Made by a program: the position numbers and the translations under genes | Shown: positions 3,252-58,909 of the stretch, piece after piece | How positions within the stretch are numbered: the first letter of the stretch is position 1 | Layout: every line of letters begins with the position of its first letter | DNA from: Escherichia coli | Lineage (GTDB): Bacteria; Pseudomonadota; Gammaproteobacteria; Enterobacterales; Enterobacteriaceae | Strand: one strand, 5' to 3' | NCBI RefSeq assembly: GCF_003018255.1 | Contig: NZ_CP027440.1 | DNA length: 64,000 nt | The notes under the pieces: generated by a model | Seen by the model: only the letters and a program-made list of their open reading frames with translations | The model's database searches: none | Told to the model about the DNA's origin: nothing

Positions 3252-4604
3252 GTGTTTATTGGTTTTGATTACGGTACAGCAAACTGTTCAGTGGCGGTCA
3301 TGCGCGACGGTAAGCCGCAATTACTGAAAATGGAAAACGACAGCACGCTGCTGCCTTCAATGCTTTGCGCGCCAACGCGTGAAGCGGTAAGCGAATGGCT
3401 GTACCGCCATCATGATGTTCCGGCAGACGACGATGAAACGCAGGCGCTGTTGCGTCGGGCGATTCGTTATAACCGCGAAGAAGATATCGATGTTACGGCG
3501 AAAAGCGTGCAGTTCGGTCTTTCCTCACTGGCACAGTACATTGATGATCCAGAAGAGGTGTGGTTTGTGAAATCACCAAAATCATTCCTCGGTGCCAGCG
3601 GCTTAAAACCGCAGCAGGTAGCGCTGTTTGAGGATCTGGTCTGCGCAATGATGTTGCACATTCGCCAGCAGGCGCAGGCGCAGCTGCCGGAGGCAATTAC
3701 TCAGGCGGTGATTGGTCGCCCGATCAACTTCCAGGGGCTGGGCGGCGATGAAGCAAACGCCCAGGCGCAAGGGATTCTGGAACGCGCGGCGAAGCGTGCC
3801 GGGTTTAAGGATGTGGTATTCCAGTACGAGCCGGTCGCGGCTGGGCTGGATTACGAAGCCACCTTGCAGGAAGAAAAACGGGTGCTGGTGGTGGATATCG
3901 GCGGTGGTACGACTGACTGTTCATTGCTGCTGATGGGGCCGCAGTGGCGTTCGCGTCTCGATCGTGAAGCCAGCCTGCTGGGTCACAGTGGTTGCCGTAT
4001 TGGCGGTAACGATCTGGATATCGCACTGGCGTTTAAAAACCTGATGCCGTTACTGGGCATGGGTGGCGAAACCGAAAAAGGCATCGCCCTGCCGATTCTG
4101 CCGTGGTGGAATGCGGTTGCCATCAACGACGTTCCTGCGCAAAGTGATTTCTACAGTAGTGCCAACGGTCGTCTGCTTAACGACCTGGTACGCGATGCCC
4201 GCGAACCGGAAAAAGTGGCCCTGTTACAGAAAGTCTGGCGTCAGCGTTTAAGCTATCGCCTGGTACGTAGCGCAGAAGAGAGCAAAATTGCGCTTTCAAG
4301 CGTAGCGGAAACCCGCGCCTCACTGCCGTTTATCAGCGATGAACTGGCTACGCTGATTAGCCAGCAAGGGCTGGAAAGCGCCCTCAGCCAGCCACTGGCG
4401 CGGATTCTGGAACAGGTGCAACTGGCGCTGGATAACGCCCAGGAAAAACCGGATGTTATCTATCTGACCGGCGGTAGCGCCCGTTCACCGCTGATTAAAA
4501 AAGCGCTGACAGAACAGTTGCCGGGCATTCCGATTGCAGGTGGCGATGACTTTGGCTCCGTCACCGCCGGGCTGGCACGCTGGGCGGAAGTGGTGTTTCG
4601 TTAA
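3252..4604 (+). CDS. yegD: Hsp70/actin-fold ATPase YegD
   Basis: ORF 3189..4604; likely GTG start at 3252 giving 450 aa (VFIGFDYGTANCSVAV...), DnaK-like N-terminal phosphate loop. Confidence 0.8.
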   Translation: MFIGFDYGTANCSVAVMRDGKPQLLKMENDSTLLPSMLCAPTREAVSEWLYRHHDVPADDDETQALLRRAIRYNREEDIDVTAKSVQFGLSSLAQYIDDPEEVWFVKSPKSFLGASGLKPQQVALFEDLVCAMMLHIRQQAQAQLPEAITQAVIGRPINFQGLGGDEANAQAQGILERAAKRAGFKDVVFQYEPVAAGLDYEATLQEEKRVLVVDIGGGTTDCSLLLMGPQWRSRLDREASLLGHSGCRIGGNDLDIALAFKNLMPLLGMGGETEKGIALPILPWWNAVAINDVPAQSDFYSSANGRLLNDLVRDAREPEKVALLQKVWRQRLSYRLVRSAEESKIALSSVAETRASLPFISDELATLISQQGLESALSQPLARILEQVQLALDNAQEKPDVIYLTGGSARSPLIKKALTEQLPGIPIAGGDDFGSVTAGLARWAEVVFR

Positions 4605-4616
4605 TTGAAAACTGGC

Positions 4617-6566
4617 TCAGCAACGGCTTAAATCAGCCTGCGCCTGAGCCAGTTTTTCTGCCGCCTGACGTAGCGGTTCCATCAACGGCATGGTCCGTGC
4701 TGGAGCATGAAGGCGGAATCGCTGCAACTCTGTCGCACCGACATTCAGCGCCGATTCCAGCCGATGTCGTTTGGCGGCCATTTTTGCCATTACCGCTTGT
4801 CTGTCTGCAGGCGTTACCGCTTCGTTCGGCCTGAACACAAAACGGCGTTCACAGCTCGCTTTCCAGTCGATAACCGCCTGGGTCAGATGATCACCAAAAC
4901 CTTTCACTTGCTTAACGCTCCGTCGGGTAACATCCGCTGCTGTTTCAATACCAAAGGACCGTAACGCCGCTTTACGCGCAGGGCCAACGCCGGGAATAGA
5001 GGCAACATCAATAAAAAATCCCTCCAGAAACTTCTGCTTCTGCCGTTCCCTTGCGGTGTCCTGAAGTGCTGCCAGATCGCGCTTTTCTTCTTCCGGTAAC
5101 CCAAGAATTTCGTCCTTCATTTTTTCGAGCATCGTCCGTTTGGCGATAAAACCTTCCAGCCCGCCCAACTGCTGGATCTGGCTGACTAAATGGTCATAGT
5201 CCATTTTCGCGCGATTAAACGCCTCACGGCGTTGCTGGATTTCTGCTTTGTACGCTTTGCTTGTCAGGCTGCCAATAATCCAGATAGCCGCCAGCACAGG
5301 AACCAAAATAATATAACGTGGTTCTGTCTGAAGGCCGCAAAGCAGCAGCGATAACGCTGACAGTGCGATCTCAATCAGAATGATGTATTCACGCCTTAAC
5401 AGGCCTAAAGGAAGCGGCCTGCCAGTCGGTTGGAAATGATCGGGTAATGGTAATTGCAATGCTGGCGGTGCTACTGACGCCATCACCATCGCCCAGACTT
5501 TCGCCAGCACAAAATCACCGCTGGTGGTAATGACCTCTTCGCCGAGATCAATAAAATAGATAACGCCTTGATTATCCAGAGCACACCACGGGCAGTCAGC
5601 CAAATGACCGGGATAAACATGCATTGCCGAAACGGTACATTTCTTTAACTGTTGGCGTAGTAAATCAAGTGCCGCTACCCACGCTTTTGCCGTCGGACGC
5701 CCGGTTGCCACGCCACTTTCCGTGAATGCCTGCTGAAACATGGCTTCAACATCGCCCGGTAACATCGACAGCGGAATAGATCGTGGCGGCGGTTTTAAAC
5801 CACGTCGCTGATTATCTGACGCGTAGGCATAACGGAAATGGGCAATATCCGTCTCCAGTGCATTACCCGCATCAGAGACAAGCGGTACACCGGAATAAGG
5901 ATGCCGCCCACCAAACAAGACGTGAAAAATCAGCAACGCAAGGCCAAAATTATCGTGATTCGCGGTGCGTTCAAAGCCGACAAATGATGGCAAGGTTTGT
6001 TGCTCTGGCGGCGTAAAATGCGACACGCCGACTTCGCATAAATGCAGCGTGCCATTGGCGTTAATCTGAAAGGAGTCGCTATCAATCAACACCACTTTGC
6101 TGTCGCGACCTACCATAAAGCTGTTCTGGTTTACGTCACCCACGACGTGCCCGTGCTCGTGAATCGTAGCAAAAGATGAAGCAATATTGCGCGCAACATA
6201 GAGTAGAAAATCCCACGCACAATGAGGGTAACGTTGACGACGATGTGCCGGGCTATAGATCATATGAATCGGTTCTTTACCAGAAACTTTTGGCATCATA
6301 AAACCGATTACTTTTCCGCCTCGTCCACCGTGAAGCGTTGCCTGCGGCCAGGCGACATAATTCAACAACTGCGCGTCAGCTGTCGCAGCCATAAAGGCAA
6401 GTTTGTCCTGTTTTAAGGCGGGTGGCGGCGTGTGATAAATCTTGGCGACGCTATCGACAAACTCCTCGATATCATAAACCGCGCCTTCACCGCCTTTGCC
6501 CAGTTCACAGCCTGGCGTAACGCACTCACCAGTAGCAGTATATAAAGTGGGTTTCATGGTAACCAC
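4617..6566 (-). CDS. yegI: Ser/Thr protein kinase-like membrane protein YegI
   Basis: 649 aa ORF; N-terminal kinase-like domain, central hydrophobic segments, C-terminal helix-hairpin-helix-like region; start overlaps stop of upstream yegK. Confidence 0.8.
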   Translation of the reverse strand: MVTMKPTLYTATGECVTPGCELGKGGEGAVYDIEEFVDSVAKIYHTPPPALKQDKLAFMAATADAQLLNYVAWPQATLHGGRGGKVIGFMMPKVSGKEPIHMIYSPAHRRQRYPHCAWDFLLYVARNIASSFATIHEHGHVVGDVNQNSFMVGRDSKVVLIDSDSFQINANGTLHLCEVGVSHFTPPEQQTLPSFVGFERTANHDNFGLALLIFHVLFGGRHPYSGVPLVSDAGNALETDIAHFRYAYASDNQRRGLKPPPRSIPLSMLPGDVEAMFQQAFTESGVATGRPTAKAWVAALDLLRQQLKKCTVSAMHVYPGHLADCPWCALDNQGVIYFIDLGEEVITTSGDFVLAKVWAMVMASVAPPALQLPLPDHFQPTGRPLPLGLLRREYIILIEIALSALSLLLCGLQTEPRYIILVPVLAAIWIIGSLTSKAYKAEIQQRREAFNRAKMDYDHLVSQIQQLGGLEGFIAKRTMLEKMKDEILGLPEEEKRDLAALQDTARERQKQKFLEGFFIDVASIPGVGPARKAALRSFGIETAADVTRRSVKQVKGFGDHLTQAVIDWKASCERRFVFRPNEAVTPADRQAVMAKMAAKRHRLESALNVGATELQRFRLHAPARTMPLMEPLRQAAEKLAQAQADLSRC

Positions 6567-7315
6567 AGCGCCAGTGCCAACGTTTTATCATCATCGGTAC
6601 GCTCGTTTACCGCCGGGCCGGACAAAAACTGCTTTAACAATTCAGGTAATAAATCGAGTTGTTCCTGCGTTGCTGACGCCAGCCCATTGAAAAACGGGGT
6701 AAAGAAAGGCACATGCGGAGAATTATCCAGCATATTTAACGCCAGCCGCTGGATACCATCCGTAAATGCTGCAACTTTGTGCGCACGCTCAGTGCTGGTG
6801 AAAGTTTCCAGTCTGGAAACGGCATCTTCATCGGTAATGAAGTGCGTCATATTGGTATATTCACCCACCATCGGCGTGAGCGGCAGTTGCAAACCGTGCC
6901 CCAAATCTACCACCACGCCGCCATCGCCAATCTGCATAATCAAGGTGCCATTAGCTGATGAAATCAATCCCAAAAACGTGCAGGCAAAATCGCGAACCGC
7001 TAATTCTTTGGCTTCCGCCTCGGCAAAAAGTCGCTGACGAATGGTCAGCACAATGTCCGTTGCGAGAACATCATTAAGCCCCAATTCCCCGCCCTGCACT
7101 TTTTGCGACATATAAGCCATCGCTTCATTGACGGCGAGCATCGCACCTTCGCCTCCCTGCGAGGCGCTACCTGCGCCATCAGCGACAAATACCGACAATA
7201 ATGGCTGCTGGTCATTTAACCAGGCAACCTGCATCTGGCAGGCATCCTGGCAAGGCAAGTCCGCGCTGATGTGCGACGTTCCAACGGTTGATGCATAGAC
7301 CAGACGCCAGCTCAC
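6554..7315 (-). CDS. yegK: PP2C-family Ser/Thr protein phosphatase YegK (PphC)
   Basis: 253 aa ORF with PP2C-like metal-binding motifs (VADGAGS, FTDGI); overlaps yegL stop by 4 nt. Confidence 0.75.
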
Positions 7316-7971
7316 ACTGACGTCCAGCCTTTTGGCGCTTCCAGCACAACTTCCGTTCCCGGCGTGGAGCGGGAAACCGAACGCAGCGAACTGGATAACC
7401 AGCTAAATAGTTCGCGGAATTGTAATCCTTGAAGAGGCAAAGGCTGACGAACGCTGATTTGGGCCAGCGTCTTCATATCCGCCCCCTGAACACCGATGGA
7501 AAAGAAGGCAAACTTCTTATCTTCTTCCCCCTGAAACACCTTGTTGGCAGCAGCCTGCCACTCATCGGTTGGTGCGCCATCGGTAATCAGGAAAATCCAC
7601 GGACGATAATAGGAAATACCATTGGCGCGATACTCACGTTTGCGCTCCTCAACCATATCCAGGGCTTTGGTAATGGCGGCCCCCATTGGTGTATCGCCCT
7701 GGGCAAACAGGATGGGCGGGAAAAAATTAGCGGCGCTGGTAAATGGTTGTTCCACATGCACCGGGCCGAACGTCACAATGCCGAGTTCCACTCTTTTTAA
7801 GGCCAGCGGATCGGCAAGCAGCTCATCGCGAAAGGTAACCAATCCGGCGTTAAGTTCATTAATAGGTCTACCGTTCATAGAACCAGAAACATCCAACAGC
7901 AAAATGCAGGGGCAACGTGGTTCCGGGTTACTGGCAAAATCGCTGGTGGCAAACGTGATTTGTTCGCTCAT
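7312..7971 (-). CDS. yegL: von Willebrand factor A domain protein YegL
   Basis: 219 aa ORF with MIDAS motif DVSGSM and downstream TDG. Confidence 0.8.
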
Positions 7972-8152
7972 AAGAAATCCTTTCTTAGAGAATTATTGAG
8001 GCCCGGTATCATACCGACTGCAACAATGAAATAAGAGCAAACGAAGAAACTTTCAGAATTAGGCCCGGCGGCGCAGAAAATTTTGCTATTCGCCTCGCAA
8101 GAACGGAGAGCCGTCGATTGACACTAAGGGCGGAGTGACATAATTTCAGGAG

Positions 8153-8300
8153 TGAGGGTTAGGGAGAGGTTTCCCCCTCCCCCTGGTGTTCTTAGTAAGC
8201 CTGGAAGCTAATCACTAAGAGTATCACCAGTATGATGACGTGCTTCATCATAACCCTTTCCTTATTAAAAGCCCTCTTCTCCGGGAGAGGGTTTCCCGTT
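8153..8300 (+). ncRNA. sibA: Sib antisense RNA antitoxin, copy 1 (boundaries approximate)
   Basis: Plus-strand -35 ttgaca 8118-8123, 17 bp spacer, -10 taattt 8141-8146; transcript fully covers ibs ORF; hairpin plus T tract near 8268-8303. Confidence 0.55.
8192..8251 (-). CDS. ibsA: Ibs type I toxin, 19 aa hydrophobic peptide (MMKHVIILVILLVISFQAY)
   Basis: Reverse complement of 8192..8251 reads ATGATGAAGCACGTCATCATACTGGTGATACTCTTAGTGATTAGCTTCCAGGCTTACTAA; SD-like ggaaaggg upstream. Confidence 0.8.
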   Translation of the reverse strand: MMKHVIILVILLVISFQAY

Positions 8301-8487
8301 TCAGCGTCCCGCTGAAATCGTCGGCTTACCTCCTTTCGCCCTGAATGCAGTCTATCGCTAACGCGTGAACAAAATAGTTTCCTCTGTGATTATTGCGTAA
8401 CGACTCGCAAAGAATATTTGCTGGCAGGATCGCAGACTACAAAGCCTGCGGATTGACAATCTTATCGTGAAGGCATAATTTCAGGAG

Positions 8488-8630
8488 TGAGGGTAGAGCG
8501 GGGTTTCCCCCGCCCTGGTAGTCTTAGTAAGCTGGCCAGCTAATAACTAAGAGCACCACGATGATGAGTAGCTTCATCATGACCCTTTCCTTATTTAAGG
8601 CCCCTTCCTCGGGAGGGGCTTTCCCGTTTC
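8488..8630 (+). ncRNA. sibB: Sib antisense RNA antitoxin, copy 2 (approximate)
   Basis: ttgaca 8453-8458, 17 bp spacer, taattt 8476-8481; hairpin ggccccttcctcgggaggggct followed by ttcccgtttc. Confidence 0.55.
8524..8580 (-). CDS. ibsB: Ibs type I toxin, 18 aa (MMKLLIIVVLLVISWPAY)
   Basis: Reverse complement of 8524..8580 gives ATGATGAAGCTACTCATCATCGTGGTGCTCTTAGTTATTAGCTGGCCAGCTTACTAA. Confidence 0.8.
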   Translation of the reverse strand: MMKLLIIVVLLVISWPAY

Positions 8631-8815
8631 AGCGTCCCGCTGAAATCGGCGGCCTACCTCCTTTCGCCATGCAAGCAGTCTATCGCTAACTTGCAGATAA
8701 AATAGTTTCACATGTGATTATTGCGTAACGTCTCGCAAAGAATATTTGCTGGCAGGATCGCAGACTACAAAGCCTGCGGATTGACAATCTAATTGTGAAG
8801 GCATACTTTCAGGAG

Positions 8816-8957
8816 TGAGGGTAGAGCGGGGTTTCCCCCGCCCTGGTAGTCTTAGTAAGCCGGGAAGCTTATGACTAAGAGCACCACGATGATGATCCAC
8901 TTCATCATGACCCTTTCCTTATTTAAGGCCCCTTCCTCGGGAGGGGCTTTCCCGTTT
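8816..8957 (+). ncRNA. Sib-family antisense RNA, copy 3 (approximate)
   Basis: ttgaca 8781-8786, 17 bp spacer, -10-like tacttt 8804-8809; terminator hairpin ending near 8957. Confidence 0.5.
8852..8908 (-). CDS. Ibs-family type I toxin, 18 aa (MMKWIIIVVLLVISFPAY)
   Basis: Reverse complement of 8852..8908 gives ATGATGAAGTGGATCATCATCGTGGTGCTCTTAGTCATAAGCTTCCCGGCTTACTAA. Confidence 0.75.
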   Translation of the reverse strand: MMKWIIIVVLLVISFPAY

Positions 8958-9143
8958 CAGCGTCCCGCTGAAATCATCGGCTTACCTCCTTTCGCCCTGA
9001 ATGCAGTCTATCGCTGACTTGCGGATAAAATAGTTTCACATGTGATTATTGCGTGACGTCTCGCAAAGAATATTTGCTGGCAGGATCGCAGACTGCAAAG
9101 CCTGCGGATTGACAATCGGACCGTGAAGGCATACTTTCAGGAG

Positions 9144-9287
9144 TGAGGGTAGAGCGGGGTTTCCCCCGCCCTGGTAGTCTTAGTAAGCTGGGTAGCTAAC
9201 GACTAAGAGCACCACGATGATGAGTATCTTCATCATGACCCTTTCCTTATTTAAGGCCCCTTCCTCGGGAGGGGCTTGCCCGTTTCA
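9144..9287 (+). ncRNA. Sib-family antisense RNA, copy 4 (approximate)
   Basis: ttgaca 9109-9114, 17 bp spacer, tacttt 9132-9137; terminator hairpin ending near 9286. Confidence 0.5.
9180..9236 (-). CDS. Ibs-family type I toxin, 18 aa (MMKILIIVVLLVVSYPAY)
   Basis: Reverse complement of 9180..9236 gives ATGATGAAGATACTCATCATCGTGGTGCTCTTAGTCGTTAGCTACCCAGCTTACTAA. Confidence 0.75.
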   Translation of the reverse strand: MMKILIIVVLLVVSYPAY

Positions 9288-9444
9288 GCGTCCCGCTGAA
9301 ATCGTCGGCCTACCTCCTTTTGCCCTGAATGCAGTCTATCGCTAACGCGTAGATAAAATAGTTTCCTGTGTTATTACTGGATGGGTGCTCGCAAATGTGC
9401 CCGCCATTCAGACGATTCCCGATAGTGTTTCATAATTCCTCCAT

Positions 9445-22529: not shown

Positions 22530-22613
22530 TTAATTTCGATTATTTTTCCCGGATGGAAAATTCTTAGAAACCGATCACATACAGCTGCATTTATTAAGGT
22601 TATCATCCGTTTC

Positions 22614-22700
22614 GCTGAAAAACATAACCCATAAAATGCTAGCTGTACCAGGAACCACCTCCTTAGCCTGTGTAATCTCCCTTACACGGGCTTATTTTTT
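22614..22700 (+). ncRNA. cyaR: CyaR (RyeE) Hfq-dependent small RNA
   Basis: Sequence gctgaaaaacataacccataaaatgctagctgtaccaggaaccacctccttagcctgtgtaatctcccttacacgggcttatttttt matches CyaR as recalled, including terminator hairpin and U tract. Confidence 0.85.
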
Positions 22701-38859: not shown

Positions 38860-38975
38860 CTGCCATAACGTGAAGAAGCAATGACCTGGTGGTCCGTGAC
38901 TTCCCTACGCTGGCATTATCCAGATCAGGTGATACGGGTATTTCTCAGCCTTCACAAAGAAGGGCACCCCGAGTC
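38860..38975 (-). promoter_or_regulatory. TPP (THI-box) riboswitch in thiMD leader
   Basis: Minus-strand sequence ...ctcggggtgcccttct...ctgagaaatacccgtatcacctgatctggataatgccagcgtagggaagtcacggacc... matches the thiM thi-box aptamer as recalled. Confidence 0.85.
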
Positions 38976-39072
38976 GTTTGGTTGCGATAATAAATCGCAG
39001 AGGAGGATGGTAATGTCCAGCGCACGCGTTGTAAACGGGGAAAAACGGCGGTATTACAATCGCGTTAATAAA

Positions 39073-58217: not shown

Positions 58218-58304
58218 GTTGAGATGCCATGTTGCACTATCAGTAACTTAACATCAAAGTAGTAAATAAAAGAACCTGCCTCACCAGCAGGTTCTTTTAT
58301 TTTC
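58218..58304 (+). ncRNA. orzO: OrzO small RNA antitoxin (approximate ends)
   Basis: Starts about 7 nt after tataat; contains gccatgttgcact complementary to the zorO 5' UTR (plus-strand coordinates about 58060-58073); terminator aaagaacctgcctcaccagcaggttctttt plus T tract. Confidence 0.65.
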
Positions 58305-58825: not shown

Positions 58826-58909
58826 GTTGGTACGAAATGTTGCACAATCAGCAAGTTAGCGTCATTGTAGTAAATAAAAGAACCTGCCTCACCAGCAGGT
58901 TTTTTTATT
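58826..58909 (+). ncRNA. orzP: OrzP small RNA antitoxin (approximate ends)
   Basis: Contains ttggtacgaaatgttgcac, imperfectly matching gttggtacgaaacgttgc in the zorP leader; terminator aaaagaacctgcctcaccagcaggttttttt. Confidence 0.6.

What the first reader, a model, noticed from the sequence alone, without database searches (positions are those of the whole stretch)
8110..9350. Four tandem Ibs/Sib type I toxin-antitoxin repeats with diverged toxin peptides
Four ~330 bp units each carry a minus-strand 18-19 aa hydrophobic ORF (MMKHVIILVILLVISFQAY, MMKLLIIVVLLVISWPAY, MMKWIIIVVLLVISFPAY, MMKILIIVVLLVVSYPAY) fully overlapped by a plus-strand antisense RNA with a consensus-like promoter (TTGACA, 17 bp, TAATTT or TACTTT) and a terminator. 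K-12 has two copies at this locus as far as I recall (ibsA/sibA, ibsB/sibB), so this looks like a copy-number expansion. Peptide variation is concentrated at residues 4-5 and 15-16 while the antisense partner co-varies by construction. That is the pattern expected if each Sib discriminates its own ibs mRNA.
Basis: partly seen in the sequence, partly recalled or inferred. Interest (0 to 1): 0.5.

Follow-up and report, generated by a model that had tools for sequence, protein, structure and literature searches.

The report
Four-copy ibs/sib toxin-antitoxin array
This is the well-known E. coli ibsA/sibA-ibsB/sibB small-toxin/antisense-RNA locus carrying four tandem copies instead of the two in K-12; that copy number is common, occurs in about one in eight complete E. 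coli genomes and is already annotated, so the finding is real but ordinary.

Summary
Window 8118-9365 holds four tandem units (335 bp, then 328 bp apart). The locus is the yegL-mdtA intergenic region, where K-12 has sibA/ibsA and sibB/ibsB.

The window is 100% identical to E. coli 2014C-3338, and RefSeq already annotates four ibs genes there. Copy number at this locus is a common polymorphism. Arrays of 1 to 5 units were seen directly. In two samples of 60 of about 5,400 complete genomes, 7 had four copies, 24-27 had three and 24 had two.

Among units 2-4, 10 of 11 variable Sib positions fall in them (P about 1e-6). They map to the apical loops of Sib hairpins P5 and P6. P5 is TRD1 of Han et al. 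2010.

The second published recognition domain, TRD2, is identical in units 2-4. The published rule is that either domain suffices for repression, so these three units are predicted to cross-repress rather than be fully insulated.

Family, mechanism, tandem duplication and copy-number variation are all published. Verdict: already known, low interest.

The parts
8118..9365 (.). Whole tandem ibs/sib array: four units, spaced 335, 328 and 328 bp, in the yegL-mdtA intergenic region
   Evidence: TRF; alignment; promoter pattern
7312..7971 (-). yegL (vWA-domain protein), left flank of the K-12 sibA/sibB locus
   Evidence: ORF; RefSeq annotation of the identical genome
9515..10762 (+). mdtA, right flank of the locus
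   Evidence: RefSeq annotation (locus 3516-4763 plus offset 5999); sequence
8118..8146 (+). sib1 (sibA) promoter: TTGACA, 17 nt, TAATTT
   Evidence: identical to the MG1655 sibA promoter
8154..8297 (+). Sib1 = SibA antitoxin RNA (144 nt), bounds transferred from the MG1655 annotation
   Evidence: Rfam hit 8118-8266 (the model is offset); fold
8192..8251 (-). ibs1 = ibsA, MMKHVIILVILLVISFQAY, identical to K-12 IbsA (WP_010723109.1)
8453..8481 (+). sib2 promoter: TTGACA, 17 nt, TAATTT
8489..8624 (+). Sib2 antitoxin RNA (136 nt), SibB-like
8524..8580 (-). ibs2, MMKLLIIVVLLVISWPAY (WP_100249772.1); differs from K-12 IbsB by F15W
8781..8809 (+). sib3 promoter: TTGACA, 17 nt, TACTTT
8817..8952 (+). 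Sib3 antitoxin RNA (136 nt)
8852..8908 (-). ibs3, MMKWIIIVVLLVISFPAY (WP_012767741.1); the same protein as the second unit of O157:H7
9109..9137 (+). sib4 promoter: TTGACA, 17 nt, TACTTT
9145..9280 (+). Sib4 antitoxin RNA (136 nt); this allele is at least 99% identical in 223 RefSeq records
9180..9236 (-). ibs4, MMKILIIVVLLVVSYPAY (WP_100249771.1)
8197..8219 (+). TRD1 equivalent (P5 stem-loop) of Sib1. Counterparts lie at 8529-8551, 8857-8879 and 9185-9207. This is variable patch 1, antisense to ibs codons about 11-17
   Evidence: mapping to SibC +46..+68; folds
8237..8245 (+). P6 apical loop of Sib1. Counterparts lie around 8566-8574, 8894-8902 and 9222-9230. This is variable patch 2, antisense to ibs codons 3-5
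8579..8598 (+). TRD2 equivalent (single-stranded J1/7, antisense to the ibs Shine-Dalgarno and start) of Sib2. It is identical in Sib3 (8907-8926) and Sib4 (9235-9254). The Sib1 counterpart is 8250-8270, with 2 differences
8597..8622 (+). Sib2 terminator hairpin. Counterparts lie at 8269-8294 (Sib1), 8925-8950 (Sib3) and 9256-9275 (Sib4)
   Evidence: inverted repeats; MG1655 Sib 3' ends
8299..8354 (-). ibs1 upstream region: a perfect 8-bp hairpin (8299-8317) at the expected 5' end of the ibs mRNA, then a weak promoter-like stretch. The promoter is not resolved. The region repeats downstream of each unit (8627-, 8955-, 9283-)
   Evidence: position inferred from the 18-nt ibsC 5' overhang in PMC2943612

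Best explanation
The region is the chromosomal ibsA/sibA-ibsB/sibB type I toxin-antitoxin locus of E. coli, carrying a four-unit allele.

Each 328-335 bp unit holds two overlapping genes. The minus strand encodes an 18-19 aa hydrophobic Ibs peptide. The plus strand encodes a 136-144 nt Sib RNA, driven by a strong -35/weak -10 promoter, that is perfectly complementary to the whole ibs ORF and its ribosome-binding site.

From the K-12 literature: Sib pairs with ibs mRNA starting at the P5 loop (TRD1, inside the ORF) and at the single-stranded J1/7 segment (TRD2, over the Shine-Dalgarno and start codon). This blocks translation and exposes the duplex to RNase III. Unrepressed Ibs inserts into the inner membrane and depolarises the cell.

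Inferred here: the copy number arises by unequal crossing-over and gene conversion between the 328-bp repeats. These events also shuffle the P5-loop and P6-loop modules between units. Unit 1 (A type) is distinct from units 2-4 at TRD1, the P6 loop, the P2 hairpin and the terminator, but at only 2 positions in TRD2. Units 2-4 differ from each other almost only in the P5 and P6 loops and share an identical TRD2, so they probably protect one another at least in part.
For: Identity:
- Four full-length SIB_RNA matches at 137-150 bits.
- Peptides verified.
- Unit 1 peptide, Sib1 recognition modules and promoter are identical to MG1655 ibsA/sibA; the Sib RNA differs by one base in the terminator.
- The context is yegL/mdtA.
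- RefSeq names all four CDS as Ibs toxins.

Structure: the MFE folds of all four Sibs give the published P1/P2/P5/P6/J1-7/P7 layout, with the variable bases in the P5 and P6 apical loops.

Hot spots:
- 10 of 11 variable Sib columns among units 2-4 fall in TRD1 plus the P6 loop, hypergeometric P = 1.4e-6.
- The TRD1 patch includes synonymous changes: Pro CCA/CCG/CCC, Val GTT/GTC, Ile ATT/ATA.

Specificity proxies:
- TRD1 segment duplex energy is -40 to -41.5 kcal/mol for cognate pairs and -20 to -29.5 for non-cognate pairs.
- P6 segment energy is -27 to -30 against -15 to -22.
- TRD2 energy is identical (-25.2) among units 2-4, with 0 mismatches and 50-53 nt perfect runs.

Array dynamics:
- Arrays of 1-5 units exist, with different unit orders and recombined N-terminal and C-terminal modules.
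- One array has two identical adjacent units.
- O157:H7 unit 1 carries a B-type 3' part.
- One single-unit array fuses the A-type promoter to a B-type body.

Mechanism literature: PMC2943612, PMC4147584, PMC8309996.
Against: - Nothing was measured in this strain. Transcription of Sib3/Sib4 and ibs3/ibs4, toxicity and repression are all inferred from homology.
- The ibs promoters of A/B-type units could not be pinned down. Candidates match only 3 of 6 in each hexamer (own reading), and the generic scan found none.
- The Sib terminators have weak T tails.
- The cross-repression prediction rests on SibC/SibD chimera results. Han et al. themselves note a counter-example: SibA and SibE share the +90..+113 region, yet SibA does not repress ibsE.
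Confidence: 0.9

Rival explanations
1. One reading: the four pairs are mutually insulated. Each Sib represses only its own ibs, and the two variable patches are the specificity code.
For: K-12 Sibs act only on cognate ibs mRNAs, except for ibsA (PMC2943612). Patch 1 is TRD1. Cognate TRD1 and P6 duplexes are 12-20 kcal/mol more stable than non-cognate ones. Variation is sharply clustered and includes synonymous changes.
Against: TRD2 is identical in units 2-4. Han et al. showed that SibC loses repression only when both TRDs are changed, and that a single matching TRD gives repression of ibsD. Patch 2 is the P6 loop, whose contact Han et al. called non-productive on its own. One natural array carries two fully identical units, so insulation is not required for an array to persist.
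Confidence: 0.35
2. The extra units are decaying, non-functional duplicates, and the clustered differences are drift in unconstrained loops.
For: Loops are the least constrained parts of an RNA. N-terminal Ibs residues are largely dispensable for IbsC toxicity (PMC8309996). Copy number drifts between 1 and 5.
Against: All four ORFs are intact with a Shine-Dalgarno sequence. All four sib promoters keep a perfect -35. All four Sibs score 137-150 bits. Outside the two patches the units are nearly identical, which indicates constraint or homogenisation rather than decay. Residue 15 stays aromatic (F/W/Y). The same alleles recur in hundreds of genomes.
Confidence: 0.07
3. The four copies are an assembly expansion artefact.
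For: Tandem 328-bp repeats at 90-95% identity can be mis-assembled from short reads.
Against: The window is 100% identical to a finished genome (H1). Four-unit arrays are present in several independent complete assemblies from different countries and hosts. About 12% of complete genomes carry four units in both samples. The units are distinguishable by sequence.
Confidence: 0.01

Closest known systems
E. coli K-12 MG1655 ibsA/sibA-ibsB/sibB (b4667/b4436, b4668/b4437)
   Same: Same locus between yegL and mdtA. Unit 1 encodes the same peptide and has the same promoter; its Sib RNA differs by one base. The unit architecture and 328-335 bp period are the same.
   Different: K-12 has two units and this window has four. 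Unit 2 differs from K-12 IbsB by F15W and at TRD1 and TRD2. Units 3 and 4 have no K-12 counterpart at this locus.
E. coli O157:H7 three-unit array at the same locus
   Same: Unit 3 here encodes the same protein as O157:H7 unit 2 (WP_012767741.1). Unit 4 resembles O157:H7 unit 3, MMKILIIVVLLVISYPAY.
   Different: This window has one more unit. Unit 4 carries I13V and a different TRD1 sequence. O157:H7 unit 1 has a B-type TRD2 and terminator.
SibC/ibsC and SibD/ibsD of K-12 (Han et al. 2010, PMC2943612)
   Same: Same predicted secondary structure, with TRD1 in the P5 loop and TRD2 in J1/7. Variation is concentrated where that paper said it is.
   Different: SibC and SibD differ in both TRDs (4 and 7 positions). 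Units 2-4 here differ in TRD1 and the P6 loop only and share TRD2.
Other tandemly duplicated type I systems: ldrABC/rdl, and zorO-orzO/zorP-orzP (the latter is present in this window at about 58.2-58.9 kb)
   Same: Small hydrophobic toxin plus antisense RNA, duplicated in tandem within one intergenic region, with copy number varying between strains (PMC2887945).
   Different: These are unrelated sequence families. Orz and Rdl RNAs overlap only the 5' UTR of their targets, whereas Sib covers the whole ORF and the translation-initiation region.

Membership tests
Ibs/Sib type I toxin-antitoxin (Rfam RF00113 SIB_RNA; Ibs family toxin) | Antitoxin RNA matches the SIB_RNA covariance model above the gathering score | tested here: met
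   Four hits at 137-150 bits against 56, model positions 1-147 of 147. The five K-12 Sibs score 134-150 bits under the same search.
Ibs/Sib type I toxin-antitoxin (Rfam RF00113 SIB_RNA; Ibs family toxin) | An 18-19 aa hydrophobic peptide (MMK...AY) encoded antisense to the RNA | tested here: met
   Four intact ORFs. Unit 1 is 100% identical to K-12 IbsA. RefSeq names all four as Ibs toxins. The peptides are too short for the Pfam and NCBIfam tools (minimum 30 and 20 aa), so no profile scan was run.
Ibs/Sib type I toxin-antitoxin (Rfam RF00113 SIB_RNA; Ibs family toxin) | The sRNA spans the entire ORF plus the translation-initiation region of its target | tested here: met
   Sib bounds transferred from the MG1655 annotation cover each ORF, with 35-38 nt beyond the stop and 44-46 nt beyond the start codon.
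Ibs/Sib type I toxin-antitoxin (Rfam RF00113 SIB_RNA; Ibs family toxin) | Own promoter and terminator for the sRNA | tested here: met
   TTGACA-17-TA(A/C)TTT occurs four times against 0 expected. Terminator hairpins are present. The generic scans did not call either feature; support comes from identity to the K-12 elements.
Ibs/Sib type I toxin-antitoxin (Rfam RF00113 SIB_RNA; Ibs family toxin) | Own promoter and Shine-Dalgarno sequence for the toxin mRNA | tested here: inconclusive
   The Shine-Dalgarno sequence AAGGAAAGGG is present 4-5 nt before each ATG, and the upstream regions are near-identical to K-12 ibsA/ibsB. No convincing -35/-10 pair was identified.
Ibs/Sib type I toxin-antitoxin (Rfam RF00113 SIB_RNA; Ibs family toxin) | Sib fold presents TRD1 in the P5 loop and TRD2 single-stranded between P1 and the terminator | tested here: met
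   MFE predictions for all four Sibs show this layout. This is prediction only, with no probing data.
Ibs/Sib type I toxin-antitoxin (Rfam RF00113 SIB_RNA; Ibs family toxin) | Overexpressed peptide is toxic and the toxicity is repressed by Sib | not testable with these tools
   This needs induction and co-transformation assays as in PMC2943612.
Cognate-only (insulated) Sib/ibs pairs as described for K-12 SibB-E | Both recognition domains (TRD1 and TRD2) differ between any two family members in the cell | tested here: not met
   TRD1 differs by 3-5 positions between all pairs. TRD2 has 0 differences among units 2-4 and only 2 between unit 1 and the others.

The most novel reading that the evidence does not exclude
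The non-A units of this array form a shared-TRD2 group. Their P5-loop and P6-loop modules would be kept different within an array by selection and reshuffled between arrays by recombination. Across the population this would be a combinatorial antisense-specificity system layered on a common cross-protecting domain, rather than simple drift of duplicated units.
Probability: 0.15. Interest if true: 0.4.

Novelty: already known. Interest (0 to 1): 0.12.

Why it matters
It matters little as a discovery. The family, its mechanism, its tandem organisation and its strain-to-strain copy-number variation are all published, and the four genes are already in RefSeq for this strain.

Two points have modest value:
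- The population figures: 1-5 units at the locus, and about 12% of complete genomes with four.
- Units 2-4 share TRD2 while differing in the P5 and P6 loops. This gives a natural, ready-made test of whether one matching recognition domain is enough for antisense repression in vivo.

Tried and rejected
- Fozo et al. 2008, the founding Ibs/Sib paper, could not be read by PubMed id or by PMC id. What it says about copy number in other strains is therefore cited only through later papers.
- A keyword search for copy-number literature returned mostly irrelevant abstract books.
- The generic promoter/terminator scan found none of the sib promoters or plus-strand terminators. I treated this as a limit of the scan's thresholds, because a targeted pattern search and the K-12 annotation agree on their positions.
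- My first regular expression for units missed alleles with a GCA alanine codon. It was replaced by an ORF-based search.
- Rfam hit coordinates were rejected as transcript bounds. In K-12 they start 36 nt upstream and end 31 nt short of annotated sibA.
- I tried to locate the ibs promoter in A/B-type units by aligning them to K-12 ibsC/D/E. A 22-nt insertion disrupts the correspondence and only weak candidates remain.
- I did not inventory the sibC/D/E-type loci of the source strain, so cross-talk with those was not assessed.
- Peptide profile searches were not possible because the peptides are shorter than the tools' minimum lengths.

Full report
**What is there.** Tandem Repeats Finder reports one array at 8139-9365, period 328, 3.7 copies, 90% matches. 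An alignment of the four units has 88% mean column identity, and units 2-4 are much closer to each other than to unit 1.

Rfam gives four full-length SIB_RNA (RF00113) matches on the plus strand, at 137-150 bits against a gathering score of 56. The pattern TTGACA-N17-TA(A/C)TTT occurs four times in 64 kb, only here, against none in 100 shuffles.

Two qualifications apply. The -10 hexamers match the consensus at only 3 of 6 positions. The terminator hairpins have T-poor tails. A generic scan called neither feature.

**Where the transcripts lie.** Rfam coordinates are not the transcript bounds. In MG1655 the hits start 36 nt upstream of annotated sibA and end 31 nt short of its 3' end. Transferring the MG1655 annotation by alignment gives:
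- Sib1 8154-8297 (144 nt)
- Sib2 8489-8624 (136 nt)
- Sib3 8817-8952 (136 nt)
- Sib4 9145-9280 (136 nt)

Each starts 7 nt after its -10 hexamer, ends just after its terminator hairpin, and covers the whole ibs ORF plus its Shine-Dalgarno region.

**Is four copies unusual?** No. The window is 100% identical over 5.5 kb to E. coli 2014C-3338. RefSeq already annotates four ibs genes there: ibsA WP_010723109.1, WP_100249772.1, WP_012767741.1 and WP_100249771.1. MG1655 has two units and O157:H7 has three.

I estimated the distribution in two ways:
- From the span of the match in 60 records taken at even steps down the ranking of 5,427 records, after correcting for a 734-bp yegJ indel: 7 had four copies, 24 had three and 24 had two.
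- From the number of matches per record to an 86-nt spacer specific to A/B-type units: 7 with four, 27 with three, 24 with two, 1 with one and 1 with five. The whole collection gave 14,355 matches in 5,416 genomes, a mean of 2.65, a median of 3 and a maximum of 8.

Arrays with one unit and five units were inspected directly. The Sib2 and Sib4 alleles of this window are found at 99% identity or more in 627 and 223 records. Independent complete assemblies carry the same or similar four-unit arrays, so an assembly artefact is excluded for practical purposes.

Copy-number differences are also in the literature: 6 Ibs genes in EDL933, 7 in Sakai, 7 in Shigella boydii and E. fergusonii, against 5 in K-12, with lineage-specific duplications noted (PMC2887945).

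**How it works.** The mechanism is taken from K-12 work, not shown here. Sib RNAs are made constitutively and repress the toxic Ibs peptides. SibC has two independent target-recognition domains. TRD1 is +46..+68, the P5 loop, and pairs inside the ORF. TRD2 is +99..+115, the single-stranded J1/7 segment, and pairs over the translation-initiation region. Either one suffices for repression, and repression is lost only when both are changed (PMC2943612).

Pairing blocks translation, and the duplex is an RNase III substrate (PMC4147584). Overproduced IbsC depolarises the membrane within minutes. Its C-terminal and central hydrophobic residues are needed for toxicity, while the N-terminal ones are mostly dispensable (PMC8309996). 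A preprint reports that Salmonella IbsA inhibits the Fo sector of ATP synthase.

MFE folds of all four Sibs reproduce the published layout of P1, P2, P5, P6, J1/7 and the P7 terminator. Among units 2-4, 11 of the 136 Sib positions vary. Ten of these fall in the TRD1 equivalent or the P6 loop (hypergeometric P = 1.4e-6).

The patches map as follows:
- Patch 2, residues 4-5, is the P6 apical loop and not TRD2.

Patch 1 contains synonymous differences (Pro CCA/CCG/CCC, Val GTT/GTC, Ile ATT/ATA), and residue 15 stays aromatic. This fits selection, or tolerance, acting at the RNA level.

Segment duplex energies:

| Segment | Cognate pairs (kcal/mol) | Non-cognate pairs (kcal/mol) |
|---|---|---|
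| TRD1 | about -40 | -20 to -29.5 |
| P6 | -27 to -30 | -15 to -22 |
| TRD2, units 2-4 | -25.2 | -25.2 (identical) |

TRD2 has zero differences among units 2-4 and lies inside a 50-53 nt perfectly shared run. Unit 1 differs from the others there at only 2 positions.

By the published either-domain-suffices rule, Sib2, Sib3 and Sib4 should each recognise all three ibs2-4 mRNAs. The caveat is that Han et al. note that SibA and SibE share the +90..+113 region, yet SibA does not repress ibsE. The outcome has to be measured.

**How the array evolves (inferred).** I compared 44 units from 12 of the 13 genomes examined; no unit was detected in the thirteenth (52F4).
- The N-terminal/P6 module has four alleles: HV, LL, WI and IL.
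- The C-terminal/TRD1 module has about six alleles.
- The modules occur in different combinations. LL occurs with SFP, SWP and SYP. IL occurs with SYP, VSYP and SFP.
- Unit order differs between arrays.
- MRY15-131 has two identical adjacent units.
- O157:H7 unit 1 combines the IbsA ORF with a B-type 3' part.
- The single unit of SC455 joins the A-type promoter to a B-type body.

These are the expected footprints of unequal crossing-over and gene conversion between 328-bp repeats.

**Verdict.** This is a real and correctly identified Ibs/Sib array. It is a common, already annotated allele of a well-studied locus, and the specificity idea is already published. The only mildly new point is that units 2-4 share TRD2, which argues against strict one-to-one insulation and is easy to test.

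Noticed in passing
window 58225-58298 and 58833-58906 (+): Two Rfam OrzO-P antitoxin RNA matches (90 and 89 bits against 60). This is a tandem zorO-orzO/zorP-orzP type I toxin-antitoxin locus, described from O157:H7 and absent from K-12 (PMC2887945).
   Followed up: no
window 22612-22697 (+) and 38885-38981 (-): CyaR sRNA (100.7 bits) and a TPP riboswitch (71.2 bits), as expected for this part of the E. coli chromosome.
   Followed up: no
window 8407-8421, 8735-8749, 9063-9077; related 8073-8086: Inverted repeat GCAAA-GAATA-TTTGC centred about 75 nt upstream of the Sib2-4 start sites. A similar GCAGAAAATTTTGC sits at the same distance from Sib1. The adjoining TTTGCGAG (ibs-sense strand) is also conserved upstream of K-12 ibsC and ibsD. 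It may be a transcription-factor site; its function is unknown.
   Followed up: partly
window about 8319-8341 (-), repeated in each unit: A/B-type units carry an insertion of about 22 nt (GCGAAAGGAGGTAAGCCGACGAT on the ibs-sense strand) relative to K-12 ibsC/D/E. It contains a perfect Shine-Dalgarno-like AAGGAGGT with no canonical start codon after it.
   Followed up: partly
window 8299-8317, 8627-8645, 8955-8973, 9283-9301: A perfect 8-bp hairpin, TTTCAGCG-N3-CGCTGAAA, lies immediately after every Sib terminator. This is where the 5' end of the ibs mRNA is expected by analogy with ibsC.
   Followed up: partly
L006 1276-1424 against annotated sibA 1312-1455: The Rfam RF00113 model is shifted about 36 nt upstream of the annotated Sib transcripts. 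It includes the promoter and lacks the terminator.
   Followed up: yes
L013 (MRY15-131) 1744-1800 and 2072-2128: A five-unit array in which units 2 and 3 are identical in peptide, TRD1, P6 loop, TRD2 and promoter. This looks like a recent duplication.
   Followed up: partly
L003 (O157:H7 F6667) unit 1; L012 (SC455) single unit: Chimeric units. O157:H7 ibsA/sibA has a B-type TRD2 and terminator. The only unit of SC455 has the A-type sib promoter joined to a B-type body.
   Followed up: partly
between yegI and pphC, left of the window region (query positions about 560); L011 763-1224: A 734-bp presence/absence polymorphism carrying yegJ. It is present in K-12 and several other strains and absent from the source strain of this window.
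   Followed up: partly
E. coli genome collection: Seven matches to the A/B-type unit spacer lie on records labelled as plasmids, and one genome has 8 matches. Neither was inspected.
   Followed up: no
L016 (52F4) 1897-1956: This single-unit array is annotated ibsA with a different protein (WP_071528451.1). My ORF pattern did not pick it up, so it probably has a variant N-terminus.
   Followed up: no
window 8561-8689, 8871-9017, 9217-9345 (+): Repeated 42-48 aa plus-strand ORFs start at the AUGAUG of the Sib P6 stem (one at an ATG just upstream) and run through the terminator. They have no Shine-Dalgarno sequence and are probably a by-product of the palindromic ATGATGA/TCATCAT.
   Followed up: no
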